64,000 nucleotides of DNA. It comes from Croceivirga thetidis (GTDB lineage: Bacteria > Bacteroidota > Bacteroidia > Flavobacteriales > Flavobacteriaceae). Below, piece by piece: positions 6,746 through 47,595 of the stretch. A model generated the notes under the pieces. The model worked only from the letters and a program-made list of their open reading frames with translations. It searched no databases and was not told where the DNA came from. The translations under genes and the position numbers were made by a program. Positions within the stretch are counted from its first letter, which is position 1; each line of letters opens with the position of its first letter. Location: positions 1,301,146 through 1,365,145 of the forward strand of contig NZ_JAAWWL010000001.1 of NCBI RefSeq assembly GCF_012272815.1, written 5' to 3'.

Positions 6746-8914
6746 CTATTTTTCGAGCGCATAAGCACGATATTCATCGCCTGATTTTGTACCCATTTTA
6801 CCTCCACCACATGCAACAACTAAGAACTGTTGCCCTCCAACCTCATACATAGCTGGGGTAGCATAACCACCTGCAGGTAAGTTATCTTCCCATAATTGTT
6901 GGCCATTTTTCATATCAAAAGCACGAATTTTTTCATCTCGAGTTGCTGCGATAAAAAGTAGTCCACCGGCAGTAATGACAGGGCCACCATAATTCTCTGT
7001 TCCAGAAATTGGTATTGAAGGGTCATTTAATTTTTCCTCATGCCCCAAGGGAACTTTCCATAAATATTCACCTGTATTTAAATCAATGGCATTAAGTGTG
7101 CCCCAAGGTGGTTTTACAACAGGAAATCCACGGTCATCTTTAAATCGACCAAAACCAGCGACCGCATAAGGTACCTTAATAGATGATTTTTCTGCTCGGT
7201 GATCGGTTTCCATTTCAATGCCCGAAATGTAGTGCGTTATGGCATTGATTTCTACTTCTGATAGATTGGGCATTCCAGGCATTGCTCCTTTTCCATTCTT
7301 AATTATTTTACCAATGGAATCAAGACTTAATCTTTCTTTTATCGTTTGTAGCTCAGGTATTCCCGCAAGTCCTTGTAATTCACCACCGTGGCAACGGGCG
7401 CAATTAATTTGAGTTAAGGCTTCTCCAGGGTGGCTTCCTTCGCCCTCATCTTCTAGCACTTCTTTCATTCGAACAATCCAAGCCATTTCATTTGAGTTGA
7501 CATACATGACCCCATCTCTTGGGTCTAAAGCTGCACCGCCCCATTCAGCCCCTCCGTCTGCGCCTGGGTAAAGGATGGTTCCAAGGGTGTCAATCGGCAT
7601 AAACTGACCTTTTGAAGTAATGGATTCTAGTTTTTCGAGAACCGTAGGTGGATCAATATTTTGATCTTTATCTACAAAATCATCAACAAATGCAGGTCGA
7701 TTTGGTTGGTACAAGTCATTTTTTGTTAATTCTTGCCTTGCAAATGGGGCAGGTTTTGTGGGAAGTGGTTGTGTGGAATGTGCCGATTCGCCTTTTAGAC
7801 TTGAAGGCGGGTATTCTTTTTCTTCTATGGGGAATAATGGTTCTCCGGTTACCCGGTTGAAGACAAAGACATGACCACTTTTGGTAACTTGGGCAACCGC
7901 CGGAATTTTATCCCCATCACGGTCTAGTTCAAAAAGGTTGGGAGGCGCAGGCAGATCCCTATCCCACATATCATGATGAACAAATTGAAAATGCCAAAGT
8001 CGTTCCCCTGTTTGGGCGTCAAGGGCCAAAAGACTATTTGCAAACAGATTTTCCCCATGTCGATCACCCCCATACCAATCAAAGGCCGCAGACCCAGTGG
8101 GGAAGTATACAATACCACGATCAAGATCAACAGCATTTCCTGACCAGCTATTTGCCCCACCAACTGTTTTATAAGCATCTTTGGGCCAAGTTTGGTAACC
8201 ATACTCTCCAGGTTGTGGAATTGTATGGAATGTCCATCGTATTTCACCCGTAACAACATCGTACGCTCGAATATGGCCTGGTGAAGAACCGGGTCCTTCA
8301 CCAACTCGGGTACCCATAATAATTAAATCCTTATAAATTGCCCCAGGGGTGTTTGCATAAACTGCCAACTGCTCCTTATTCCTTCCAAGACCGTCGCGCA
8401 AATCGATACTCCCATTTTCTCCAAAAGTGTCGATTGCTTTGCCCGTTTTTGCCGAAACGGCATATAATCGGAAACCGGAAGCGAAAAACAATCGATTTTC
8501 TTCACTTTCACTGTTTGACTGCCAATAGCTTAGGCCGCGATTTAAACCTAGTCCAGTATTGTCCTTAGCATTTGGTATGTATTTCCAAATTTCTGATCCA
8601 GTTTTTGCATTTAACGCAAATAGTTCAATAGAAGGATTTACACCGTACAATATTCCATCAATGATTAAAGGGTTGGTTTGAATTTGGGTAGTTCTTCCTT
8701 CTTCCAAACCACCGCTTTTATAGCTCCATGCCAGTTTTAGAGAATTGACATTTGTCGTATTTATTTCAAGGAGCTCAGAAAAATGGGACCTTTCAGGGTC
8801 TCCCAAATAGTGTTGCCAAGTTTTAGTAAATGGTGATTTTTTTTCTACAGGGTTAGAGCATCCCAGAAAAATAAAAGTTAGAATAAGACCAATTAATAGA
8901 TACCAATTTCTCAT
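6746..8914 (-). CDS. PQQ-dependent (quinoprotein) beta-propeller dehydrogenase with inserted c-type cytochrome domain
   Basis: Lipoprotein-type signal (LIGLILTFIFLGCS). Repeated W-containing propeller blades typical of PQQ glucose/sorbosone dehydrogenases. A CARCHGG (CxxCH) haem c site sits in the middle of the protein. ATG confirmed. Confidence 0.7.
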   Translation of the reverse strand: MRNWYLLIGLILTFIFLGCSNPVEKKSPFTKTWQHYLGDPERSHFSELLEINTTNVNSLKLAWSYKSGGLEEGRTTQIQTNPLIIDGILYGVNPSIELFALNAKTGSEIWKYIPNAKDNTGLGLNRGLSYWQSNSESEENRLFFASGFRLYAVSAKTGKAIDTFGENGSIDLRDGLGRNKEQLAVYANTPGAIYKDLIIMGTRVGEGPGSSPGHIRAYDVVTGEIRWTFHTIPQPGEYGYQTWPKDAYKTVGGANSWSGNAVDLDRGIVYFPTGSAAFDWYGGDRHGENLFANSLLALDAQTGERLWHFQFVHHDMWDRDLPAPPNLFELDRDGDKIPAVAQVTKSGHVFVFNRVTGEPLFPIEEKEYPPSSLKGESAHSTQPLPTKPAPFARQELTKNDLYQPNRPAFVDDFVDKDQNIDPPTVLEKLESITSKGQFMPIDTLGTILYPGADGGAEWGGAALDPRDGVMYVNSNEMAWIVRMKEVLEDEGEGSHPGEALTQINCARCHGGELQGLAGIPELQTIKERLSLDSIGKIIKNGKGAMPGMPNLSEVEINAITHYISGIEMETDHRAEKSSIKVPYAVAGFGRFKDDRGFPVVKPPWGTLNAIDLNTGEYLWKVPLGHEEKLNDPSIPISGTENYGGPVITAGGLLFIAATRDEKIRAFDMKNGQQLWEDNLPAGGYATPAMYEVGGQQFLVVACGGGKMGTKSGDEYRAYALEK

Positions 8915-8941
8915 ACTTAAAGGTAGAAATTGAAAATGGTT

Positions 8942-10303
8942 TTAACCAAAAAGGCCACGTACCATATCTTGTACCTTACCCAATTTGATAACCTCAATTT
9001 TCGGATTTTTTATCCCAACTGTACAGTTTTTTGAAATGTAGATTTTTGTGAAGCCCAACTTTTCAGCCTCTATTATGCGTTGATCCACACGTTGTACTGG
9101 TCTGACTTCACCCGCCAAACCAACTTCAGCAGCAAAACAATTGTTTTTTTCAACCGCAATGTCGACATTACTTGAAAGGATGGCCGCAACCACAGCCAAA
9201 TCAATCGCTGGGTCGTCTATTGATATTCCACCGGTAATATTTACAAAAACATCTTTGGCAGCTAGTTTAAATCCAGCTCTTTTTTCAAGAACGGCTAATA
9301 ACATGTTCAATCTCTTAGCATTGTAACCAGTTGCTGACCTTTGAGGGGTGCCATAGACCGCCGTACTGACCAAAGCTTGAATTTCAATGAGCAAAGGGCG
9401 CATTCCTTCTACAGTTGCAGCAATCGCCATTCCGCTAAGGTCTTCCTCGTTTTTAGAAATCAAGACTTCAGATGGGTTATTTACCTCACGTAAACCTCTA
9501 CTTTGCATCTCGTAAATGCCCAATTCAGCGGTAGAACCAAATCGGTTTTTCAAGGCACGAAGAATTCGGTAAACATAGTTTCTGTCACCTTCAAATTGAA
9601 GGACAGTATCAACCATATGCTCCAAAATTTTTGGACCAGCAATGGTGCCGTCCTTTGTAATATGGCCAACCAAAACAACGGGTGTGTTACTTTCTTTAGC
9701 AAACTTGATAAGTTCGGCAGTGCATTCCCTTATTTGCGATATACTGCCGGCAGCCGAATCTATATAGTCAGAATGTAAGGTCTGTATGGAATCTATTATT
9801 AGCAAATCGGGCTCCAACTGCGAGATTTGCTGAAAAATATTTTGGGTTTTGGTTTCAGTGAGAATGTAACAATTTTCGGAATTCGGATTTATTCGGTCCG
9901 CCCGCATCTTTATTTGCTTTTGACTTTCTTCACCTGACACATATAAGGTTTTGAACGGAAGGCTTAGCGCTATCTGAAGTAATAAGGTACTTTTTCCGAT
10001 GCCGGGTTCTCCACCTAAAAGCGTAAGTGAGCCAGGCACGATTCCTCCCCCTAAAACTCGATTGAATTCTTTGTTTTTAGAATCCAGACGAATTTCAGAA
10101 TCGTTTGAAATTGTATTGATTTTTAAAGGTTTATTGGCCTTACTAGGACTATTATTTGAGGATTTCCAGGTTGTTTTTTCCTCTTTTTGCACCACTTCCT
10201 CGACTACAGTATTCCACTGCTTACAAGATGTACATTGTCCGACCCATTTTGGAAACTGGGCGCCACAATTTTGGCAGAAAAAAGCAGTTTTTGTCTTAGC
10301 CAT
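8942..10303 (-). CDS. radA: DNA repair protein RadA
   Basis: N-terminal C4 zinc finger (CQNCGAQFPKWVGQCTSCKQWNT), Walker A (GGEPGIGKST), and a Lon-like C-terminal domain. ATG confirmed at 10301-10303. Confidence 0.9.
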   Translation of the reverse strand: MAKTKTAFFCQNCGAQFPKWVGQCTSCKQWNTVVEEVVQKEEKTTWKSSNNSPSKANKPLKINTISNDSEIRLDSKNKEFNRVLGGGIVPGSLTLLGGEPGIGKSTLLLQIALSLPFKTLYVSGEESQKQIKMRADRINPNSENCYILTETKTQNIFQQISQLEPDLLIIDSIQTLHSDYIDSAAGSISQIRECTAELIKFAKESNTPVVLVGHITKDGTIAGPKILEHMVDTVLQFEGDRNYVYRILRALKNRFGSTAELGIYEMQSRGLREVNNPSEVLISKNEEDLSGMAIAATVEGMRPLLIEIQALVSTAVYGTPQRSATGYNAKRLNMLLAVLEKRAGFKLAAKDVFVNITGGISIDDPAIDLAVVAAILSSNVDIAVEKNNCFAAEVGLAGEVRPVQRVDQRIIEAEKLGFTKIYISKNCTVGIKNPKIEVIKLGKVQDMVRGLFG

Positions 10304-39164: not shown

Positions 39165-41003
39165 TTATCTGCTTAAAAAGGCTTTGATGAGGTTACTAAA
39201 CTTTCGCTTATCGGCAACAGTTCCTGAAAGTTTAAGGCGCTGTTGAATTTTAAGCTCGTCGAAAAGAAATTTTTTCTTGTAAAGTGCGTAGAGATTTTCA
39301 TCCTCAATTTCCATGAGCATTTTTGGATCTAGTGCTGTTGTCTTTTTAATTGAAATAGGTTCTTTAGTCAAGTCAATTTCCCAACATTCGCTACTTTCTC
39401 CCATATCAACCCCAATATGATATAGGCCTTTATATTTTTTTACGAGAGCGGTTTCTTTCTTGAGGTATCTTTTTAATGCGTTGAAAAATACGGTGCTCTC
39501 ACTCTTTTTCTTAGCCTCTTTTGCAGGTGTTTTTTTCTTATCCCTTGCTAAGATTAATTTTTCCAATTCATTTGCTGACTCTCGAATGTATCTGGAGAAC
39601 AAATAGGCATCTGGCATTGTCTTCGCATCAGATGTCGGTGTAATACTTATATTGCCGTTATAGCTAAAAGCCGCGATAATCAGTCCAAAACCATTGACCA
39701 CCGGAGTCAACGGAAACATAGCTACCACTTTATGGCCGTTGAGGTACAACGTATTTTTTGGTCCAGGCACATTGGTGATGGTGACATTAAAAGGTGGCCT
39801 GTGTAGGTCTTTAATATTGTACTTGCTGTAGATACGTGCCGCTAAATTGGCCAAGCCGAATGGAACCGCATCTGCCATTTTTACCAAGGTTTTTGCACCC
39901 ATAGTTTTATGCCTTGCTTTACCAAGCATTGTCTGTTCTTGTATATATTCCAGACGTTCCAATGGTTCTTCAATATGCGTGGCCAGCTGAATCATCATAT
40001 TGGCTATTTGGTTGTTATGCGAAGTATCGTTTTCGGCGCGTATTGAAATCGGAACATTAGCGACCAATGGCTGCATTGGTAATTTTTCTTTTTCAAGTAG
40101 ATATCTGCGCAAAGCTCCGGCACAAATGGCAAGCACAACATCATTAATACTACCACCAGCCAGTTTTCGTAGACCATTCACCCTATCAAAAGACAGAATT
40201 GCGGTGCCCCAAGTTCTTTTTGGCGAAATATTTCCATTAAAAATGGTATTTGGCACAGGATATCTTGCCGTTGCAAATTCCTTTTGGATACTTAGCGTTT
40301 TAGAAGCTCTTGTTTTGACAAGCGCAATTGCGGTGTTGGCAACGGATTTGGGTAGTTTTAGGGGGTTTTTAAAAAAACCGTAGCTACTTTTTAGTAGCAA
40401 ACTCAAGTCGTCAGGCAGCGGATCTGGTTGAAATTTTTTGATTTTTGATTTGTCGATGGGCTTTACTTTATCATCTTTCTCAAACAAAGTTCCTAAAAGA
40501 CCTACGCCTGAACTTCCATCAATCATTACATGATGAACTTTACTTACAATGGCAACAGAGCCTTTGGGCACTTGTGGGATTTCGTCAATACCCTCAATAA
40601 AATGAATTGACCAAAGGGGTCTTCTCAAATCGAGGGGAGCACTGAAAATTCGTGAGGTTGTTCTACGCAAAGACTCCCAATTTGAGGGATCTGCCAACTT
40701 CATGCGGTTGAGATGAAGATCTAATTCAAAATTTGGATCATCAACCCAATATGGATAATCCAAATCCATGGGAACACGCATTAAACGCTGTCTAAATTTT
40801 GGCATTAAATGTAGCTTCGAAGCAACAATTTTTTTGAAGTCCTTGAAATTAAGTGAACCTTCAACAACCAATAGCGTGGCAATATGCATCGGACTTGTGG
40901 GAGACTCGGCATAAAGAAAGGTTGCATCGGTACCTGAGACTTGTTCGTATTTGCCTTCCAACACCTCTTGTGCAATATCTTTAAAATCAATTTTTGATGC
41001 CAT
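39165..41003 (-). CDS. wax ester synthase / acyl-CoA:diacylglycerol acyltransferase (WS/DGAT) fused to C-terminal SCP2-like lipid-binding domain
   Basis: HHVMIDGSSG (HHxxxDG catalytic motif), the ATFLYAES...PMHIATLL N-terminal block, PKFRQRL, PYWVDD, LDLRRPLWSIHFIEG. The last roughly 130 aa (GLYHIGVDMGESSECWEIDLTKEP...KLSG) match an SCP2 sterol-carrier fold pattern. 612 aa versus about 460 aa for a typical WS/DGAT. Confidence 0.85.
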   Translation of the reverse strand: MASKIDFKDIAQEVLEGKYEQVSGTDATFLYAESPTSPMHIATLLVVEGSLNFKDFKKIVASKLHLMPKFRQRLMRVPMDLDYPYWVDDPNFELDLHLNRMKLADPSNWESLRRTTSRIFSAPLDLRRPLWSIHFIEGIDEIPQVPKGSVAIVSKVHHVMIDGSSGVGLLGTLFEKDDKVKPIDKSKIKKFQPDPLPDDLSLLLKSSYGFFKNPLKLPKSVANTAIALVKTRASKTLSIQKEFATARYPVPNTIFNGNISPKRTWGTAILSFDRVNGLRKLAGGSINDVVLAICAGALRRYLLEKEKLPMQPLVANVPISIRAENDTSHNNQIANMMIQLATHIEEPLERLEYIQEQTMLGKARHKTMGAKTLVKMADAVPFGLANLAARIYSKYNIKDLHRPPFNVTITNVPGPKNTLYLNGHKVVAMFPLTPVVNGFGLIIAAFSYNGNISITPTSDAKTMPDAYLFSRYIRESANELEKLILARDKKKTPAKEAKKKSESTVFFNALKRYLKKETALVKKYKGLYHIGVDMGESSECWEIDLTKEPISIKKTTALDPKMLMEIEDENLYALYKKKFLFDELKIQQRLKLSGTVADKRKFSNLIKAFLSR

Positions 41004-41015
41004 TGGTCAGTTGTT

Positions 41016-42353
41016 TTATGCTACTCGCGAACGGTTCTTTTTTTGTAAGCTAGTATAATTATTGATGCCTATATTTTCTGCTTTGAGTTCAAACATTAAA
41101 CTAAATAGGCCAAAAAATGTTCTATTTAGATAAATAATGTGTCTTGAACCCCTATTGGCGTTCATTTTTCTAACATTTGAAGACTTCATGTAATGCTCAC
41201 CTAAAGCTGAAATTCTTTCGAATAATGATTGGTCTGAAAAGTCGAAAGTTTCGCTTTGAAAAGGTTGTGTAAAACATTCAAGTACCTCGTAGAACATTTT
41301 GGTAAAAAACTCAAGTTCTTCTTCAGAATCTTCAGTCTTCAACACTTCAAGGGCCAAAAGATTTTTTCGAAAACTCTTTTCGTTATTTATAACATCTGCT
41401 TTAAAAAGTTCGAAATACGGCGTATAAAATTCATTTGGAATTTCTTTCATACAACCAAAATCAAGTGCAATCACCTCGTTTTTATCCGAAACAAGAAAAT
41501 TTCCAGGGTGAGGATCTGCATGAACTTTGCGCAATTCATGCAATTGGTACATGTAAAAATCCCAAAGTGTTTGGCCAACTTTGTTCGAAGCCTTTTGGTC
41601 AGTATTTGATTTAATAAATTCAGAAAGATGCTTACCATTCATCCAATCCATTGTAATAATGTCAGAAGAAGAGTATTCAGGGTAGTACTTAGGAAATCTC
41701 AAATTTGGAATATGTTGACATGAACTTGCGACCTCTTGGCTTTGTTTTAGCTCCAAGACATAATCCGTTTCTTCTACAAGCTTGTTTTCAACTTCCTTGA
41801 AATATTTCTCTGAATGTTCTCCCTTGATGTTGAACATTTTCATAGCAACAGGTTTCACAATTGCTAAATCGGATTGAATACTTTCGGCTACACCAGGGTA
41901 TTGGATTTTTACGGCAAGGGTCTTACCATTTTTTTCAGCTTGATGTACCTGTCCAATACTTGCAGCATTAATTGCTTCATTACCAAATTTGTCGAATAAT
42001 TGGTTTGGATACTTACCGAATGATTTTCTGAAGGTTTTGAGAACCAAAGGAGCAGAAAGCGGAGGAACTGAAAATTGGGAAAGGGAAAATTTCTCTACAA
42101 AAGCCTTGGGCATAATGTTCTTTTCCATGCTCATCATTTGTGCCATTTTCAGGGCACTTCCCTTCAATGTTTTTAAACTATCATAGATATCGTTCGCGTT
42201 GTTTTCATCAAGACGTTCCTTAGCCTTCTCTTCAGAATTGACCATCTTGTCGCCATAATATTTCAAATAATTTACACCAACTTTAGCACCCGTTTTTACT
42301 AGTTTGGAAGTGCGTTGCAGCTTTGAAATCGGTATTTTTTTCGATGTCTTCAT
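41016..42353 (-). CDS. ABC1/UbiB (AarF) atypical protein kinase family protein
   Basis: AASIGQVHQAEKNGKTLAVKIQYPGV and ADPHPGNF are ABC1-kinase signatures. 445 aa. ATGA overlap with the upstream TetR-like gene. Confidence 0.8.
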   Translation of the reverse strand: MKTSKKIPISKLQRTSKLVKTGAKVGVNYLKYYGDKMVNSEEKAKERLDENNANDIYDSLKTLKGSALKMAQMMSMEKNIMPKAFVEKFSLSQFSVPPLSAPLVLKTFRKSFGKYPNQLFDKFGNEAINAASIGQVHQAEKNGKTLAVKIQYPGVAESIQSDLAIVKPVAMKMFNIKGEHSEKYFKEVENKLVEETDYVLELKQSQEVASSCQHIPNLRFPKYYPEYSSSDIITMDWMNGKHLSEFIKSNTDQKASNKVGQTLWDFYMYQLHELRKVHADPHPGNFLVSDKNEVIALDFGCMKEIPNEFYTPYFELFKADVINNEKSFRKNLLALEVLKTEDSEEELEFFTKMFYEVLECFTQPFQSETFDFSDQSLFERISALGEHYMKSSNVRKMNANRGSRHIIYLNRTFFGLFSLMFELKAENIGINNYTSLQKKNRSRVA

Positions 42354-43012
42354 TCGTTTTCTTTCGACTTTATTTTTTCGGCATACAAAAATTTACCGAG
42401 GTCAATGATATTATGTAATGATTTGGTATTCAATAGCTCTAAAGCAGTATTTACTGACTTTTCAATGAAAATATCTGTTTTTTCGCACCGTTGTGAATCG
42501 TCCGACATCCAGAATTTGATGGTCAATAAGAACTGGACCCAAAAGCCTTCTTTAATTGACTTTTTTTGAAATGATTCCAGACTACTGGTAAGATTGAGCG
42601 GTTCCATCGCCAATGAATCGACGAATCCATCAAAACTTTGCTTTAATTCGCTGAATAGCGATATTGTACCTAAGCTTAAACCATAATCTTTTAAGGTGAT
42701 TAAGATGAATTCTCGATTTAAGGTCAGGTTTTCAAAAAAAGTATAATACAGGCTGAGCAGTTTGTCCTTTTTGTCAAAGGAAGGATATTCAGAACTTTCA
42801 GCAAGGGTAGCAATCGAAACATCAAAAAGCGTTCTGAAAATCGCCTTGTCCAATTCTTCAAAATCCTTATAATGTTCATGAAAAGAATTGGCATCAAAAT
42901 CATAGTGTTCACCCAAATTTTCTATTGAATCGGGTTTGCCCTGCAGTCTTACCACTGCATCCATATAAAAATCTATAAGATCTTCTTCTGTTATTTTCTG
43001 TTGATTTGCCAA
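42350..43012 (-). CDS. TetR/AcrR-like transcriptional regulator (divergent HTH)
   Basis: TEEDLIDFYMDAVVRLQGKPDSIENLGEHYDFDANSFHEHYKDFEEL aligns position-by-position with the TetR consensus HTH (TRERILEAALELFAERGY..TSMRDIAEAAGVSKGALYHHFPSKEAL). TTG start at 43012. Confidence 0.5.
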   Translation of the reverse strand: MANQQKITEEDLIDFYMDAVVRLQGKPDSIENLGEHYDFDANSFHEHYKDFEELDKAIFRTLFDVSIATLAESSEYPSFDKKDKLLSLYYTFFENLTLNREFILITLKDYGLSLGTISLFSELKQSFDGFVDSLAMEPLNLTSSLESFQKKSIKEGFWVQFLLTIKFWMSDDSQRCEKTDIFIEKSVNTALELLNTKSLHNIIDLGKFLYAEKIKSKENE

Positions 43013-43108
43013 CCTAAGATGTGAACGTTTTCATAGCTTTTTCGGGAATGCCAAATGGAAATTGAGGTAAATCCGAAGCATAGCTAAATTAAGGAATTAT
43101 GCATGCAT

Positions 43109-43145
43109 AAAAAAACCAGTTAGTCTCATTGAGATTAACTGGTTT
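43109..43145 (-). terminator. rho-independent terminator of the phasin-like operon (minus strand)
   Basis: AACCAGTTAGTCTCA / TGAGATTAACTGGTT near-perfect inverted repeat (43116-43145). On the minus strand it is followed by TTTTTTT (plus-strand A-run 43109-43115). It sits just downstream of the 43177 stop. Confidence 0.7.
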
Positions 43146-43176
43146 CAGTAACTAAACTTAAATAACTAACGAAATA

Positions 43177-43464
43177 CTAAGCTACCAGTTTTTTGAATCT
43201 CTTCTGACCCTCTTTGAAATCACCTTTGATTTCGTTTAAGATATCAAAAACCAATTCTTGTTGTTTGGCCGCCAATTTCAATCCTCCTTTTACAGCTTTG
43301 TCAGCAACACCTTGCCACTGTTCTGTAATTTCAATTGATGTGGATACAAACTCTTCGGTTTTTGTTAGGGCAACTTGGTTTGCGTTAAGTGCCATATCCT
43401 TGGTCTTCTTTGCATAGTTTGCAAAAATTCCCTTCTTATTTTTATTTACTTTCTTATTTCCCAT
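43177..43464 (-). CDS. phasin-like small amphipathic protein (paralog 1)
   Basis: 95 aa, predicted all-helical and Lys-rich, with the KQQELVFDILNEIK motif shared with the two neighbouring paralogs. Confidence 0.5.
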   Translation of the reverse strand: MGNKKVNKNKKGIFANYAKKTKDMALNANQVALTKTEEFVSTSIEITEQWQGVADKAVKGGLKLAAKQQELVFDILNEIKGDFKEGQKRFKKLVA

Positions 43465-43502
43465 TACGGTTTGAATTAAGATTAGTCCCTATTTGAACTG
43501 AA

Positions 43503-44381
43503 TTATTTTTTGTTGTCAGCCAACCAAGCCGCTATAGCTTCAACTCCTGCCTCAGCTCCTAGTTCTGCTTGTTTTTTCAAGTCAGTAACGCTGGTATTTT
43601 TAAAAGTTGAACCCGCTTCATCAAGAATCGACTTGATTTTAGTTTCAGTTGCCTGTGCCAATTGCGCAAAAGTTTCGATACCATTCTCCTTGAAAATACG
43701 CTCAAGTTTAGGACCAACACCCTTAATAGCTTTAAGGTCATCTTTAATAACGGCCTTAACAGTGCTCTCAACCTTCGCCGCTTTTTGCTTTACCTCGGCT
43801 ACTTTCACAGAAGCTTTTTTAGAGGTTTTTGTAGCTTTAGCAGTAACTGTTTTCTTTGTTTTCCCAACATTTTTCTTTGTTTGCTTCAAGGCATCATCAA
43901 CCAAGTCTTCACCCTTGTCAATTACCTTTTTAGCCTGCTTAAGAGCGTCTTCCTTGACCTCATTAAATTTGGCTACGCCCTGATTTTTTAGGTTTTCAGC
44001 AGTTTTCTCAACCTTTTGAACGATTGGGTTTTCTATAACTTTCTCTTTAATGGTTTCAGAAACTTCCAATACCTTTTTACCTACAGGTGTTTTAGATACA
44101 TATTCAAAGGCACGCTCAATGGTGTCCTCATCATAACCAACCAAATCCATGGTCTTTTCTTTTCCTGTGTTGAACTGATTTTTTACTGTTGCTGCAGTTT
44201 CAAAAACCAAATCCATTTGTCTTTTACGTAATGGCTCGGTTTTTTTAACCATTTTCTTGGTCAATTCTTGCCATTTCTCACCATGCTCTATGGTCGTGTT
44301 AATTGTTGCCATTGTCACATTTATCAATGACTTATTCAAGCTTTCGCTTTTTTTAGTTCTGTTTTTTGTTGCTGTTGCCAT
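43503..44381 (-). CDS. phasin-like protein with Lys/Ala-rich linker and C-terminal helix-hairpin-helix domain (paralog 2)
   Basis: N-terminus shares KRQMDLVFETAATVK with the paralogs. The middle has KTKKTVTAKATKTSKKASVKVAEVKQKAAK (histone-H1-like). The C-terminus has DDLKAIKGVGPKLERIFKENGIETFAQLAQAT (HhH). Confidence 0.5.
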   Translation of the reverse strand: MATATKNRTKKSESLNKSLINVTMATINTTIEHGEKWQELTKKMVKKTEPLRKRQMDLVFETAATVKNQFNTGKEKTMDLVGYDEDTIERAFEYVSKTPVGKKVLEVSETIKEKVIENPIVQKVEKTAENLKNQGVAKFNEVKEDALKQAKKVIDKGEDLVDDALKQTKKNVGKTKKTVTAKATKTSKKASVKVAEVKQKAAKVESTVKAVIKDDLKAIKGVGPKLERIFKENGIETFAQLAQATETKIKSILDEAGSTFKNTSVTDLKKQAELGAEAGVEAIAAWLADNKK

Positions 44382-44425
44382 GATATATTTTGTTTAAATA
44401 CTGTTGTTCTTAATTAATTATGATG

Positions 44426-44461
44426 CAAATCTAATTTTGAGTAGTTACAAATGAGTTGCAA
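44426..44461 (-). promoter_or_regulatory. candidate SARP-box promoter: TTGCAAC-N4-TTGTAAC direct repeat (minus strand 44461-44443) plus TAGATTTG -7 box (44433-44426)
   Basis: Reverse complement of 44443-44461 is TTGCAACTCATTTGTAACT. Fourteen nt after its second TTG lies TAGATTTG, which matches the Bacteroidota TAnnTTTG -7 element. This is 45 nt upstream of the ATG at 44381. Confidence 0.5.
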
Positions 44462-44467
44462 TCGAAA

Positions 44468-44719
44468 CTAGTTCTTGACAATTCTCTTTTTGATACCGTA
44501 GAGGGCATCAAAAACAAGTTCTTGTTGGGCAGCAGTGATGTCCAATCCTTTTTTCACAACTTTTGAGGTCAAATCCAAAGATTTATAACCTAAGCCAATA
44601 GAAACATCGAATGCTTTTTCTGTTGTGGAAAGTGCAAAGTCGTTTGCTTTGTTTGCCAATCCAAGAGCGTTATCCGCTACTTTTTCTACAATGTTCTTTT
44701 TCGTTTTTTTAGTTGCCAT
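44468..44719 (-). CDS. phasin-like small amphipathic protein (paralog 3)
   Basis: 83 aa, with AAQQELVFDALYGIKK near the C-terminus matching paralog 1. ATG confirmed. Confidence 0.5.
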   Translation of the reverse strand: MATKKTKKNIVEKVADNALGLANKANDFALSTTEKAFDVSIGLGYKSLDLTSKVVKKGLDITAAQQELVFDALYGIKKRIVKN

Positions 44720-44756
44720 AACTATATATTTTTCTAATGTTTTCTATTTTATGGTG

Positions 44757-44792
44757 CAAACATAGAATCCCATAGTTACAAATGAGTTACAA
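44757..44792 (-). promoter_or_regulatory. candidate SARP-box promoter: TTGTAAC-N4-TTGTAAC direct repeat (minus strand 44792-44774) plus TATGTTTG -7 box (44764-44757)
   Basis: Reverse complement of 44774-44792 is TTGTAACTCATTTGTAACT. The repeat-to-TAnnTTTG spacing is identical to the 44426-44461 element. It is 38 nt upstream of the ATG at 44719. Confidence 0.5.
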
Positions 44793-44866
44793 GTCTGGTT
44801 GACTATTGATTTTGAATGAAGAAAGCTGCGAAGGAAATATCGATGTTTGGAATGGGAAGATGGGAA

Positions 44867-45673
44867 TCAAGCAATAGACTCAATCTTCTTGAGCAAATCC
44901 CGAGTTGCTGGTAGTGGTGTAATACCATACTCTTCTTCTAAAATATCAGCACATTTTTGATAAGTTTTTAATGCTTGCGGCCTATTTCCTTTTTGGATAT
45001 AAGCAGACATTTGAATTCGATAAGCATCTTCCCATGTTTTATCAATGGCAATTGCTTGTTGAGCAAGCCGTACACTTTCCATTGGGTTGGTGGCTATTAA
45101 TAACTCTGCCAAATTCACCAAGGCACCCAATATCAAAACCTGAATTTTCTCTCGCTCTTCTGACGACCAATCTTCAAAAATGCGATTTGGAAGATAAGAC
45201 CCTTGATGCAATGCAATGGCCATGTTGTAGGCTTCTGCTGCAATCTCAGGAAAATCACCCAAGGCTTGATTTCCAATGATGATGTATTTCTCAATGGCAT
45301 CAACATCGATCCAAACTAAATTTGAATTTAATTGATAAGTTACCCCCTGCCGTTCTACATAAATCGCTTCGGTTCTAGATGGTCGGTTTGGTTCCAAAAC
45401 TTTGTTGACCCCATGCAGCGCTACTTTAAAATCACGATCGTCACCATCTTCCCATAAGTGGTCCATGATGTGCTCCTTGTGTAACGCATGTTTGTTTCGA
45501 TAAGAAATAAGGTATTGAATTAATTGAAGGGTCTTGTCCCGACCCCATTCTTTTGCATTGACCTTTTCTCCATCACGCCAAAGCACAAATTGACCTAGCG
45601 TTTGGAATTTAATTGGAGCTTCATTCTGAAACTTTTTATGTTGCTCCAATTGATTTGTCAATGCTGCCTTCAA
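44867..45673 (-). CDS. SARP-family (OmpR-type winged helix + BTAD) transcriptional activator
   Basis: IKFQTLGQFVLWRDGEKV...DKTLQLIQYLISYRNKHALHKEHIMDHLWEDGDD is an OmpR/SARP-type DNA-binding domain. The C-terminus (VRLAQQAIAIDKTWEDAYRIQMSAYIQKGNRPQALKTYQKCADILEEEYGITPLPATRDLLKKI) is a classic BTAD. No in-frame ATG precedes the DNA-binding domain, so the start is TTG at 45673, 45661 or 45649. Confidence 0.7.
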   Translation of the reverse strand: MKAALTNQLEQHKKFQNEAPIKFQTLGQFVLWRDGEKVNAKEWGRDKTLQLIQYLISYRNKHALHKEHIMDHLWEDGDDRDFKVALHGVNKVLEPNRPSRTEAIYVERQGVTYQLNSNLVWIDVDAIEKYIIIGNQALGDFPEIAAEAYNMAIALHQGSYLPNRIFEDWSSEEREKIQVLILGALVNLAELLIATNPMESVRLAQQAIAIDKTWEDAYRIQMSAYIQKGNRPQALKTYQKCADILEEEYGITPLPATRDLLKKIESIA

Positions 45674-45685
45674 AATTTGAAATTT

Positions 45686-46237
45686 CTATTTGGTCGTAGA
45701 TGTTTTAGCCTTGGTAGTTCTTGAAGGCTTTTTGGTATTTGCTTGGTTCATAGCATCAACCTTTTTAGTGAGTTCCGCAACCGATTTTGTGAGTTTTGAA
45801 AGACTATCTTGCATTATCTTGAAATCTGATTTAGAAGCGTTACGCCATTGGTCGATAGGTACTTTTTCCATAAGTTCCTCACCATATTCGCTTAATTGCT
45901 CCTGCAAATTGGCAACCTGTTTTCTTGGGTCTTTTAAAGTCTCTTTGAGCATTTTTGGCCCTGTGGCTGCAACTGATTTAAAAAGCGAGAAACTCTTGGT
46001 CAAAATGTTTTCCTGTTCTTCAGAAGTACGGTCGGTCGTAGCTTCCATTGTTAAATCGGCCAAATGTTGTTGTATAAAATCTACGGCCTGTTTAAAATCA
46101 GAGAAGTTTAAATCTTCACCCCCTTGAACGTGTGAAACGTTACCACGCCATTGCACTTCAGATTCACCATTTTCGTCATAGATTTTTTGGGTGAACCGAA
46201 CCATAAATGAGGCGGTCTGTGCTGCTTTTTTTGCCAT
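45686..46237 (-). CDS. hypothetical helical protein (first gene of the minus-strand block)
   Basis: 183 aa, no recognisable domain, predicted helical with a Lys/Thr-rich tail. ATG confirmed. Lies 12 bp upstream of the SARP gene. Confidence 0.4.
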   Translation of the reverse strand: MAKKAAQTASFMVRFTQKIYDENGESEVQWRGNVSHVQGGEDLNFSDFKQAVDFIQQHLADLTMEATTDRTSEEQENILTKSFSLFKSVAATGPKMLKETLKDPRKQVANLQEQLSEYGEELMEKVPIDQWRNASKSDFKIMQDSLSKLTKSVAELTKKVDAMNQANTKKPSRTTKAKTSTTK

Positions 46238-46464
46238 TTTTTTCTGTTTTATATCGGGTTGGCTAACTATCTAAAAGTAACCATAATTCTTTTCGGTGAC
46301 ATTTTCTGATACTTAATCGGGGTTACCATCCTTTCTTTGACCAGTAGTTCAAGCAATAAAAATGGGGTATTGAAATACCGATTGAAGTACGAAATCCAAG
46401 CTGTTTTTGCATTTCATCGGAATTTGTACCTTGTTCGTCGATAGATACAGCAAAATTTTTAGAT

Positions 46465-47595
46465 TTGCGCACTATGGCCGAGACGAGACACGACTGGACA
46501 AAAGAAGAAATTCTTGCTATTTATAACAAACCCCTGATGGAATTGCTTTACGAAGCAGCAACAGTTCATCGGGAATACCATGACCCAAATACGGTTCAAG
46601 TCTCAACCTTACTCTCAATCAAGACGGGAGGTTGTCCTGAAGACTGCGGTTATTGTCCGCAAGCTGCGCGTTACCATACGGATATTGAAGGCAACGACTT
46701 GATGTCAGTTCAACAGGTTAAGGCCCAAGCATTGCGTGCAAAATCCGCTGGTAGTTCAAGGGTTTGTATGGGTGCAGCCTGGAGAAACGTCAAGGATGGT
46801 CCTGAATTTGACCAAGTTCTAGAGATGGTGCGAACCATCAATAAGTTGGATATGGAGGTTTGCTGTACTTTGGGTATGGTGACAGAGAACCAGGCAAAAC
46901 GACTAGCTGAAGCAGGTTTATACGCTTACAACCACAATCTTGACACTTCTGAGGAATATTATAAAGAAGTTATTTCTACTCGTGGCTATGAAGATCGTCT
47001 TCAAACCATTGAAAATGTTCGTAAAACCAACGTAACTGTATGTAGTGGTGGAATAATTGGTATGGGTGAATCTAGTGAGGACAGAGCTGGTATGCTCGTG
47101 GCTTTATCAACTTTGAATCCGCAACCAGAATCCGTTCCAATAAATGCTTTGGTAGCTGTTGAAGGTACGCCGATGGAAGAACAAAAACCAGTTGAGATTT
47201 GGGAAATGATTCGTATGGTTGCTACGACACGAATTGTAATGCCAAAGACCCAAGTAAGGCTTTCCGCTGGTAGGACTGAAATGAGCAGGGAAGGACAGGC
47301 AATGTGTTTCTTTGCCGGGGCCAATTCCATTTTTGCAGGTGATAAGTTATTGACCACCCCAAATCCGGATGTTAATCAGGATATGGAAATGTTCAAAATG
47401 CTAGGATTGAATCCTCAAAAAGCTTTTGTAAAGGCACCACAACCTAATACCGTGGAAGCTGAAGATTCTCAATTTCAATCTTTGGGTGAAAAACCAAGAT
47501 GGTCAAGGCCAGGACATTCTATAGGACAAAATGAGGCTGCTACCGAAAAAGGAAAAGCCAAGAAATTAATCGAAACCCCCATCGAGAATACATGA
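46465..47595 (+). CDS. bioB: biotin synthase with C-terminal low-complexity extension
   Basis: [10 protein letters not shown] radical-SAM cluster motif. [34 protein letters not shown] aligns with the BioB N-terminus, with a likely ATG at 46474. About 45 extra C-terminal residues. Confidence 0.85.

What the first reader, a model, noticed from the sequence alone, without database searches (positions are those of the whole stretch)
44426..44792. Identical 19-bp direct-repeat element (TTGYAAC-N4-TTGTAAC, 11-bp periodicity) in two phasin-like promoters, next to a SARP/BTAD activator gene
Read on the coding (minus) strand, the two sites are TTGTAACTCATTTGTAACT (from 44792) and TTGCAACTCATTTGTAACT (from 44461). 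Each lies at exactly the same distance (14 nt after the second TTG) from a Bacteroidota -7 box: TATGTTTG and TAGATTTG respectively. The second heptamer therefore overlaps the -33 TTG. SARP regulators (DnrI, ActII-ORF4, AfsR) are known to bind heptameric direct repeats spaced 11 bp apart that overlap the -35 region. A SARP-type gene (44867..45673) sits immediately upstream. This suggests a SARP-activated regulon controlling the coat proteins. A SARP-box arrangement has not, to my knowledge, been reported in Bacteroidota.
Basis: partly seen in the sequence, partly recalled or inferred. Interest (0 to 1): 0.78.

Follow-up and report, generated by a model that had tools for sequence, protein, structure and literature searches.

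The report
SARP-type repeat box, flavobacterial promoters
Two promoters in this marine flavobacterium carry the same tandem 7-base repeat at a fixed distance from the start signal, next to a gene for a Streptomyces-type (SARP) regulator; the arrangement is conserved across Bacteroidota, a phylum where this regulator class has not been studied.

Summary
Two copies of TGYAACT-CAtt-TGTAACT lie on the minus strand (44791..44774 and 44460..44443). Each lies 9 nt upstream of a TAnnTTTG -7 box, in front of small phasin-like genes.

The element recurs in 75 of 80 species-level Flavobacteriaceae loci (159 sites). It is always on the coding strand, always at the same spacing to the -7 box, and always before orthologues of the same three paralogous genes. 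A motif-first scan of metagenomes gave 180 sites, 173 of them before these genes. Chitinophagales relatives have 4-5 tandem 11-bp units with the same final spacing.

The adjacent 268-aa protein has a Pfam BTAD domain. Its AlphaFold model matches the AfsR SARP module and EmbR over its full length (TM 0.70-0.75).

Best reading: a small SARP-like regulator binds the repeats at about -39 to -22 and activates sigma-A transcription of lipid-body coat-like genes in a wax-ester/TAG locus. Binding and the direction of regulation are inferred, not shown.

The "-33 TTG overlap" is not conserved. "Phasin" membership is weak. This is a new variant of a known kind.

The parts
44774..44792 (-). Repeat box of promoter P1: TTGTAACTCATTTGTAACT. 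It has two TGYAACT units 11 bp apart, predicted at about -39..-22.
   Evidence: Sequence. PWM 31.7 of 33.4 bits. Orthologous sites before p83/p95-type genes in 75 species.
44757..44764 (-). P1 -7 box TATGTTTG (TAnnTTTG). The predicted transcription start is near 44752, a conserved A 5 nt downstream.
   Evidence: Sequence. TA and TTTG are present in 157-159 of 159 aligned sites at identical spacing. The -7 box lies at -12..-5 in F. psychrophilum (PMC9723704). The start site is inferred, not mapped.
44468..44719 (-). p83: 83-aa phasin-like protein, first gene driven by P1.
   Evidence: ORF. Orthologues lie downstream of 62 sites. Paralogue of p95, E 4e-11. No Pfam family reaches threshold.
44443..44461 (-). 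Repeat box of promoter P2: TTGCAACTCATTTGTAACT. It starts 6 nt after the p83 stop codon.
   Evidence: Sequence. PWM 33.4 bits, the maximum. Orthologous sites before p292-type genes.
44426..44433 (-). P2 -7 box TAGATTTG. The predicted transcription start is near 44421.
   Evidence: Sequence. Same fixed spacing as P1. The start site is inferred.
43503..44381 (-). p292: an N-terminal p83/p95-like module, a Lys-rich linker and a helix-hairpin-helix domain. It is driven by P2.
   Evidence: Pfam HHH_5 2.4e-07; Phasin PF05597 E 0.007, below the cut-off. hhalign of the p83/p95 profile to residues 15-81: 93.8 %, E 1.7e-07. Orthologues lie downstream of 80 sites.
43177..43464 (-). p95: third phasin-like paralogue, 38 nt after p292 with no box of its own. 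It is probably co-transcribed from P2.
   Evidence: ORF and sequence. UniRef name 'Phasin family protein'. In other genera a p95-type gene takes the p83 position and then carries the box.
43109..43144 (-). Intrinsic terminator closing the P1/P2 transcription units.
   Evidence: Hairpin of -17.6 kcal/mol, z -4.36, followed by U7.
44867..45673 (-). Small SARP-like regulator (268 aa): OmpR-type winged-helix DNA-binding domain (about 20-122) plus BTAD (123-264). It is the proposed binder of the boxes.
   Evidence: Pfam BTAD 1.1e-15. AF2 pLDDT 89.3, pTM 0.87. Foldseek to AfsR 8K60/8HVR and EmbR 2FEZ/2FF4: E 3e-09 to 8e-08, TM 0.68-0.75 over about 255 columns. 802 close homologues, many named AfsR/SARP family by their sources.
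45686..46237 (-). p183: conserved uncharacterised protein encoded 12 nt upstream of the SARP-like gene. It is the probable operon partner and a possible modulator.
   Evidence: Present directly upstream of the BTAD gene in 78/80 loci, and in Chitinophagales/Saprospiraceae with 1-nt overlap. No family hit. AF2 model unusable, pLDDT 53.6.

Best explanation
The two 19-mers are operator sites of the small SARP-like regulator encoded immediately upstream (44867..45673).

Proposed mechanism:
- Two protomers bind side by side, through their OmpR-type winged helices, to the two TGYAACT units. The units have an 11-bp period, so they lie on the same face of the helix, at about -39..-33 and -28..-22.
- The proximal unit ends exactly 9 bp upstream of the TAnnTTTG -7 box. 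The region where a -33 element would sit is occupied by the invariant AACTCA of the box.
- From there the BTAD domains contact RNA polymerase and activate sigma-A-dependent transcription of p83 (from P1) and of p292-p95 (from P2).
- These three paralogous small helical proteins are probably surface proteins of neutral-lipid bodies, made by the WS/DGAT-SCP2, ABC1-kinase and TetR-like genes that follow in the same cluster.

Shown: the cis-element, its promoter context, its conservation and exclusivity, and the SARP fold of the neighbouring protein.

Inferred: that this protein is the binder (about 0.8); that it activates rather than represses (about 0.7-0.75 given binding); and the lipid-body role of the targets.
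For: Cis-element:
- It is invariant in 159 sites from 75 species. There is zero variation in spacing to the -7 box, while flanking and spacer positions drift.
- Hits on the gene strand outnumber the opposite strand 160 to 1.

Targets:
- 158 of 160 sites lie before p83/p95/p292 orthologues, with the ATG 63-86 nt after the start of the proximal box.
- In the motif-first metagenome scan, 173 of 180 sites lie before the same families, 6 are at contig ends and 1 is an outlier.

Regulator:
- BTAD domain.
- A confident AF2 model whose best full-length matches are AfsR-SARP bound in transcription complexes and EmbR.

Linkage:
- The BTAD gene lies directly upstream in all 75 motif-bearing genome loci.
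- It lies within 3 kb upstream in 59/67 informative motif-first contigs.
- The same synteny and an 11-bp tandem array ending 9 nt from TAnnTTTG occur in Chitinophagales (about 50 % protein identity).

Geometry matches known SARP sites:
- Heptamer direct repeats in classical 11-bp units overlapping the -35 region (PMC10972967).
- The AfsR repeats sit 8 nt upstream of the -10 element (PMC11301090).

Strict spacing conservation is what a protein-RNAP contact requires, not what simple occlusion requires (inference).
Against: - There are no binding or expression data.
- Sequence-only comparison to solved SARPs is insignificant (AfsR E 0.25), and Pfam Trans_reg_C does not hit the N-terminal domain. 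The DNA-binding-domain assignment therefore rests on a predicted structure.
- The recognition helix differs between the Flavobacteriaceae and Chitinophagales proteins (DRDFKVALHGVNKVL versus NRNFKAALHQLTKTI), yet the heptamer stays TGTAACT. I therefore obtained no protein-DNA covariation.
- Eight of 67 motif-first contigs show no BTAD gene within the held upstream sequence.
- The -7 box is near-perfect, and flavobacterial promoters often lack a recognisable -33 element (PMC7366714). The core promoter might be active alone, which would favour repression.
- Some SARPs act negatively (PMC10972967).
Confidence: 0.62

Rival explanations
1. The SARP-like protein binds the repeats but acts as a repressor. 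It occupies -39..-22 and blocks RNA polymerase until a signal such as lipid-body formation, perhaps through p183, removes it. This would work like PhaR on phaP promoters.
For: The box overlaps the core promoter. The -7 box is consensus in 157-159 of 159 sites, so it could be constitutively strong. The -33 element is not generally detectable in flavobacteria (PMC7366714). A few SARPs are reported as repressors (PMC10972967). Phasin genes in PHA systems are classically derepressed (from memory).
Against: The spacing between box and -7 box is invariant in 159 sites and in Chitinophagales. A repressor would tolerate shifts. The BTAD activation domain is highly conserved. The geometry equals that of activating SARP sites, where repeats sit 8 nt from -10 and replace -35 recognition (PMC11301090).
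Confidence: 0.17
2. Another winged-helix regulator that reads tandem repeats, such as an OmpR/PhoB-type response regulator encoded elsewhere, binds the box. In that case the neighbouring SARP-like gene has a different target.
For: A 7-bp direct repeat with a 4-bp spacer next to the -10 region is also the layout of PhoB pho boxes (from memory). No protein-DNA covariation was found. 8/67 motif contigs lack a nearby BTAD gene.
Against: No other regulator is consistently adjacent. The TetR-like gene is missing from many motif-bearing loci and from the Chitinophagales loci, and TetR proteins bind palindromes (from memory). Contigs without BTAD show no alternative regulator next to the sites. The box is never found before pho/pst-type genes. 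The p183-BTAD pair co-occurs with the box across three orders.
Confidence: 0.13
3. No dedicated factor exists. The similarity reflects duplication of promoter plus gene (p83, p95 and p292 are paralogues), or an extended promoter element read directly by RNA polymerase.
For: The target genes are paralogues. Promoter modules are tandemly duplicated in several genera.
Against: Duplication cannot hold 16 positions invariant across genera and orders while the 9-nt spacer and flanks diverge. The spacer is only 2/9 identical even within the window. The element occurs only at these genes, so it is not a general promoter feature. The tandem 11-bp units are typical of protein dimers or arrays binding one DNA face.
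Confidence: 0.05

Closest known systems
Small SARPs of Streptomyces (ActII-ORF4, RedD, DnrI) and the SARP module of AfsR
   Same: - Same two-domain layout, OmpR-type winged helix plus BTAD, and similar size (268 aa versus about 300).
- Best structural matches.
- Targets carry heptamer direct repeats in 11-bp units that overlap the -35-equivalent region and end 8-9 bp from the -10/-7 element (PMC10972967, PMC11301090).
- The regulator gene is cluster-situated, next to its targets.
   Different: - Only about 19 % identity, and not detectable by sequence against solved SARPs.
- The host phylum is Bacteroidota, whose primary sigma factor reads TAnnTTTG at -7 rather than -10/-35 (PMC7366714, PMC9723704).
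- The heptamer is TGYAACT rather than TCGAGXX-type (from memory).
- The targets are small structural, phasin-like genes in a neutral-lipid locus, not antibiotic biosynthetic operons.
- There is a constant partner gene, p183.
EmbR (Mycobacterium tuberculosis)
   Same: The winged-helix plus BTAD core superposes with TM 0.73-0.74, normalised to the query.
   Different: EmbR has a C-terminal FHA domain and is controlled by Ser/Thr kinase PknH (from memory). The protein here ends after the BTAD domain.
PhoB/OmpR-family class II activation at pho boxes
   Same: Tandem 7-bp direct repeats with a 4-bp spacer sit on one DNA face. They replace the -35 element and lie a fixed distance from the -10 region (from memory). 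AfsR and PhoP even share a site (PMC10972967).
   Different: There is no receiver domain here. The effector domain is BTAD. The box is not found before phosphate-regulon genes.
Regulators of storage-granule coat proteins (PhaR-PhaP in PHA producers; MLDSR-MLDS in Rhodococcus lipid droplets)
   Same: A dedicated regulator is encoded beside small amphipathic coat-protein genes of a storage-lipid system (from memory for the known systems; locus content).
   Different: Those regulators are repressors of unrelated folds that bind inverted or other operators and are titrated by the granule (from memory). Here the regulator is SARP-like and the operator is a direct repeat in activator position.

Membership tests
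SARP (Streptomyces antibiotic regulatory protein) family | N-terminal OmpR-type winged helix-turn-helix DNA-binding domain | tested here: met
   The AF2 model (pLDDT 89.3) shows a beta-sheet, three helices and a beta-hairpin wing at residues about 20-122. Foldseek aligns the whole chain to the AfsR SARP module and EmbR. Caveat: Pfam Trans_reg_C gives no hit, and the profile search against PDB gives only E 0.13-0.16 to ArlR DNA-binding domains.
SARP family | Bacterial transcriptional activation domain (BTAD) following the DNA-binding domain | tested here: met
   Pfam PF03704 E 1.1e-15, 58.7 bits against a cut-off of 22.1, residues 123-264.
SARP family | Target promoters carry heptameric direct repeats with 11-bp periodicity | tested here: met
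   TGYAACT-N4-TGYAACT occurs at both window promoters and at 159 orthologous sites. Chitinophagales promoters have 4-5 units.
SARP family | Repeats overlap the -35 region, with the proximal repeat about 8 bp from the -10 element | tested here: met
   The proximal unit ends 9 bp before the TA of TAnnTTTG in 159/159 sites. The box spans about -39..-22 if the -7 box is at -12..-5 (PMC9723704; PMC11301090). Transcription starts are not mapped.
SARP family | The protein binds these repeats and activates transcription | not testable with these tools
   Only genomic association supports this. EMSA, footprinting and genetics are needed.
SARP family | Actinobacterial host and control of secondary-metabolite clusters (usual description, not a structural criterion) | tested here: not met
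   The host is Croceivirga thetidis, Flavobacteriaceae. The targets are phasin-like genes in a WS/DGAT locus. A review calls SARPs exclusive to actinobacteria (PMC10972967). I therefore file this as SARP-like in architecture and probable mechanism, not as a classical SARP.
Bacteroidota sigma-A promoter | -7 box TAnnTTTG | tested here: met
   TATGTTTG and TAGATTTG in the window. Conserved in 157-159 of 159 sites.
Bacteroidota sigma-A promoter | -33 TTTG/TTG element at canonical distance | tested here: not met
   The positions where it would lie hold the invariant YAACTC of the box. The T preceding each TG is variable. The canonical spacing of about 19-21 nt is from memory. The -33 motif is not generally detectable in F. 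johnsoniae (PMC7366714).
Phasin families (Pfam Phasin PF05597, Phasin_2 PF09361) | Match to a phasin HMM above the curated threshold | tested here: not met
   p292 versus PF05597: E 0.007, 16.8 bits against a cut-off of 28.8. Phasin_2 is hit by only 3 of 20 p83/p95 homologues, best E 0.031. 'Phasin-like' is a contextual label only.
PhoB pho-box regulon | Box present before phosphate-starvation genes, and a regulator with a receiver domain | tested here: not met
   None of 180 motif-first sites precede pst/pho genes. The adjacent regulator has no receiver domain.

The most novel reading that the evidence does not exclude
A phylum-wide, previously unstudied SARP-like circuit exists in Bacteroidota (Flavobacteriales, Cytophagales, Chitinophagales, Saprospirales). 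In it, a p183-SARP pair senses neutral-lipid (wax ester/TAG) body formation and switches on coat-protein genes. It does so by substituting for -33 recognition at sigma-A(Bfr)-type promoters. This would be the first functional SARP system outside Actinobacteria, the first regulator of lipid bodies in Bacteroidota, and evidence that the SARP-RNAP activation mode works with the divergent Bacteroidota sigma factor.
Probability: 0.4. Interest if true: 0.75.

Novelty: new variant of a known kind. Interest (0 to 1): 0.62.

Why it matters
- SARPs are treated in the literature as an actinobacterial speciality tied to antibiotic clusters (PMC10972967). A conserved SARP-type box and regulator in marine Bacteroidota would widen the family's range and physiological role.
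- It offers a compact two-promoter system, with an 18-bp operator and a 268-aa protein, for asking how an OmpR/BTAD activator works with the unusual Bacteroidota primary sigma factor.
- It gives the first regulatory handle on neutral-lipid storage in Flavobacteriaceae, a process described as unexplored in this phylum (PMC10351704). These bacteria are major carbon processors in the ocean.
- The box is also a very specific genomic marker for this locus: 173 of 180 metagenome hits.

Tried and rejected
- **Profile search of the BTAD family against PDB sequences.** It gave only TPR noise, ArlR at E 0.13 and AfsR at E 0.25, so sequence alone does not establish SARP membership. Structure prediction was needed.
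- **NCBIfam.** No family reached threshold for any of the six proteins scanned (p183, the BTAD protein, p83, p292, p95 and the TetR-like protein).
- **Covariation test with distant relatives.** The aim was to see a changed recognition helix paired with a changed heptamer. The helix differs but the heptamer stays TGTAACT. The test therefore extends conservation but gives no covariation.
- **p183.** I ran a homologue search, an alignment and AF2. The model had pLDDT 53.6 and was too poor for a fold search, so the function is still unknown.
- **Phasin membership of p83/p95.** Only sub-threshold Phasin_2 hits, and nothing in PDB.
- **Sigma-70 promoter/terminator scan.** It was not informative for Bacteroidota promoters, and it missed the terminator because of loop size. 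The terminator was shown by folding.
- **Rfam on 42900..46500.** Only a chance miRNA hit over the terminator hairpin.
- **Search for the box upstream of the p183-BTAD operon.** None in Flavobacteriaceae, so there is no sign of autoregulation there.
- **The five BTAD loci without a box.** They have no relaxed hits either. They also lack adjacent phasin-like genes or end at contig edges.
- **Literature.** No paper on SARP/BTAD regulators or lipid-body proteins in flavobacteria. The paper with the -33/-7 spacer measurements (PMC1828668) is not held, so that spacing is quoted from memory.

Full report
**1. What is in the window**

All genes around the finding lie on the minus strand. In order they are:
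- p183 (45686..46237; no family).
- A 268-aa BTAD protein (44867..45673; Pfam BTAD E 1.1e-15).
- p83 (44468..44719).
- p292 (43503..44381; HHH_5 domain, weak Phasin and apolipoprotein hits).
- p95 (43177..43464).
- A hairpin terminator at 43144..43109 (-17.6 kcal/mol, z -4.4).
- A TetR_C_23 protein, an ABC1 kinase and a WS/DGAT-SCP2 fusion.

The organism is Croceivirga thetidis (= Muricauda sp. DJ-13), family Flavobacteriaceae.

Each is followed after 9 nt by TATGTTTG or TAGATTTG respectively.

**2. Is it more than chance?**

Within the window:
- These are the only two instances of two TTGNAAC heptamers 3-5 nt apart.
- The refined 18-mer has 2 matches at up to 1 mismatch, against 0.00 expected.

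The decisive evidence is comparative. I searched one genome per GTDB species with an alignment of the BTAD protein. This found 181 relatives, and I kept 80 loci from many Flavobacteriaceae genera plus one Roseivirgaceae.
- A PWM scan finds at least 2 sites in 75 of the 80 loci. All are on the gene strand and all lie downstream of the BTAD gene.
- A relaxed scan gives 160 hits on that strand and 1 on the other.
- The five loci without sites end at a contig edge or have no phasin-like genes nearby.

**3. Anatomy of the element (159 sites)**

The consensus is n-TGYAACT-CA-ty-TGYAACT-N9-TAnnTTTG-CA.
- G, AAC and T of both units are essentially invariant. The CA after unit 1 is nearly so (C in 154 and A in 151 of 159 sites).
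- The T that makes 'TTG' is present in only 78/159 sites for unit 1 and 107/159 for unit 2.
- The 9-nt gap to the -7 box never varies in length, although its sequence does. Within the window the two gaps are only 2/9 identical.
- The -7 box lies at -12..-5 in a flavobacterial transcription-start map (PMC9723704). On that basis the units lie at about -39..-33 and -28..-22, and the start is the conserved A at 44752 (P1) and 44421 (P2). These starts are inferred.
- The second TG is therefore near -28/-27, not at -33. The place where a -33 TTTG would sit holds the invariant AACTC. The canonical spacing is from memory. The -33 motif is in any case weak in flavobacteria (PMC7366714).
- A weak third unit (nnnAACT) appears one period upstream in about half of the sites.

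**4. What the element controls**
- In the genome loci, 158 of 160 sites precede orthologues of p83, p95 or p292. The ATG lies 63-86 nt from the start of the proximal box.
- p83 and p95 are paralogues (E 4e-11). Their profile matches residues 15-81 of p292 (hhalign 93.8 %). All targets therefore share one module of about 70 aa.
Of these, 173 precede the same three families and 6 are at contig ends. One precedes an ArsP-type permease (L090) and is probably chance.
- In 59 of 67 contigs with at least 1.2 kb of upstream sequence, the BTAD gene is within 3 kb upstream on the same strand.
- Contigs without it show no other regulator beside the sites.
- No box lies before p183-BTAD, the TetR-like gene, ABC1 or WS/DGAT in Flavobacteriaceae.
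- The gene order p183-BTAD-p83-p292-p95-TetR-ABC1-WS/DGAT is complete in 41 loci. p183 accompanies BTAD in 78 of 80.

**5. The regulator**
- By sequence, only the BTAD domain is recognised. PDB profile searches do not reach SARPs: AfsR E 0.25, ArlR DNA-binding domain E 0.13.
- AlphaFold2 on a 20-sequence alignment gives pLDDT 89.3 and pTM 0.87. The model has an N-terminal sheet, three helices and a beta-hairpin wing, followed by a helical repeat domain.
- Foldseek against PDB ranks the AfsR SARP module in RNAP-promoter complexes (8K60, 8HVR) and EmbR (2FEZ, 2FF4) first. E values are 3e-09 to 8e-08, TM 0.68-0.75, about 255 aligned columns and 19 % identity. Below these come only TPR proteins that cover half of the chain.
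- The protein is thus a small SARP in architecture.
- The proposed recognition helix (DRDFKVALHGVNK) is invariant in the family.

**6. Wider distribution**
- An exhaustive HMMER search found 24,066 cluster representatives at E <= 0.001. The nearest non-orthologous relatives are about 270-aa proteins at about 50 % identity, and about 1070-aa proteins with the module at the C-terminus.
- The 50 % group comes from Chitinophagales, Saprospiraceae and unclassified Bacteroidota.
- These genes again follow a p183-like gene. They sit beside WS/DGAT-SCP2, GPAT/acyltransferase or gpsA genes, or before an HHH_5 protein plus a 90-aa protein.
- Three such promoters carry 4-5 tandem 11-bp units: TGTAACT two or three times, then degenerate CGnnACT. 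The last unit again ends 9 nt from TAnnTTTG.
- The recognition helix differs there but the heptamer does not. This extends conservation to other orders but gives no covariation.

**7. Mechanism**

Known SARPs bind heptamer direct repeats in 11-bp units that overlap the -35 region (PMC10972967). In the AfsR complexes two SARP modules sit side by side on one DNA face, with the proximal site 8 bp from the -10 element. They replace sigma region 4 on a poor -35 and contact the beta flap, sigma R4 and alpha-CTD (PMC11301090).

The flavobacterial box reproduces this geometry against a -7 box. I therefore propose that two protomers of the SARP-like protein bind the two units and activate sigma-A transcription of p83 and p292-p95.

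My estimates for each step:

| Step | Probability |
|---|---|
| Real, selected cis-element | about 0.98 |
| Promoter-embedded as described | about 0.9 |
| Bound by the adjacent protein | about 0.8 |
| Activation rather than repression, given binding | about 0.7-0.75 |

The main argument for activation is the absolute spacing constraint together with the conserved BTAD domain. The main argument against is the consensus -7 box, which might suffice alone.

p183 is always co-encoded and has a nearly invariant N-terminal 65 aa and a Lys-rich tail. It may modulate the regulator. This is speculation, because its model was unusable.

**8. The targets**

'Phasin-like' is not established. Only sub-threshold phasin hits were obtained, and one UniRef name says 'Phasin family protein'.

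The context is a neutral-lipid one: a WS/DGAT-SCP2 fusion, an ABC1 kinase, and acyltransferase/GPAT/gpsA neighbours in other orders. This argues for wax-ester or TAG bodies rather than PHA. Such storage is described as unexplored in Bacteroidota (PMC10351704).

**9. Novelty**

I found no paper on SARP/BTAD regulators in flavobacteria. A 2024 review states that SARPs are exclusive to actinobacteria (PMC10972967), although databases already label these proteins 'AfsR/SARP family'.

The regulator class and the operator logic are known. The new elements are the phylum, the -7-box promoter type, the target class and the constant p183 partner. I rate this a new variant of a known kind, with interest 0.62.

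Noticed in passing
window 45686..46237 (-); L001-L080 just upstream of the BTAD gene: p183, an uncharacterised 183-aa protein, is encoded directly upstream of the SARP-like gene in 78/80 loci. The gap is 12 nt in the window and there is a 1-nt overlap in Chitinophagales. Its N-terminal 65 residues or so are almost invariant and its C-terminus is a Lys/Thr/Ala-rich tail. It is a likely operon partner of unknown role.
   Followed up: partly
window 39165..43012 (-): Downstream genes form a neutral-lipid locus: a WS/DGAT fused to an SCP2 sterol-carrier domain, an ABC1 atypical kinase and a protein with only the TetR_C_23 domain recognised. The order is conserved in 41 of 80 loci.
   Followed up: partly
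window 43503..44381 (-): p292 combines the p83/p95-like N-terminal module with a Lys-rich linker and a helix-hairpin-helix domain. This resembles PhaF-type phasins that tether granules to DNA (resemblance from memory).
   Followed up: no
L021, L023, L025, L026, L028, L030, L037, L048, L056, L060, L062, L076, L077 (about 6800-9000): In several genera two complete box-plus-(-7) modules lie about 77-90 bp apart before a single gene. These are tandemly duplicated promoters.
   Followed up: no
L201 7001-7057; L202 6971-7037; L204 5981-6047: Chitinophagales-type promoters carry 4-5 tandem 11-bp units (TGTAACT x2-3, then degenerate CGnnACT). The last unit is again 9 nt from TAnnTTTG, which suggests binding by a longer array of protomers.
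   Followed up: partly
L206 4365-4400: TGTAACC-N4-TGTAACT followed after 9 nt by TAAATTTA lies before the p174-BTAD operon itself, divergent from WS/DGAT. This may be autoregulation in that lineage. No such site occurs in Flavobacteriaceae.
   Followed up: no
L090 2490-2524: This is the only full motif match not before a phasin-like gene. The downstream ORF is an ArsP_1 permease with an HMA domain, and no locus genes are nearby. It is probably a chance match.
   Followed up: partly
proteins P0129-P0270: The closest non-orthologous relatives include many proteins of about 1070 aa with the winged-helix/BTAD module at the C-terminus. This is the reverse of the AfsR domain order.
   Followed up: no
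window about 46255..46275 (-); upstream of p183 in L001-L047: The p183-BTAD operon is preceded by conserved -7-like boxes that deviate from consensus: TAnCTTTA in the Croceivirga/Muricauda group and GTAATTTGT (TAnnTTGY-like) in the Winogradskyella/Lacinutrix group. In Polaribacter-type loci p183 instead starts right after a gene ending ...GSEKEPG.
   Followed up: no
L069, L073 (6001-6800 and flanks): Two loci with full flanks (L069, Tenacibaculum aquimarinum; L073, an unclassified Flavobacteriaceae MAG) keep p183-BTAD but have neither phasin-like genes nor any box within 6 kb. The targets may lie elsewhere or be lost.
   Followed up: partly
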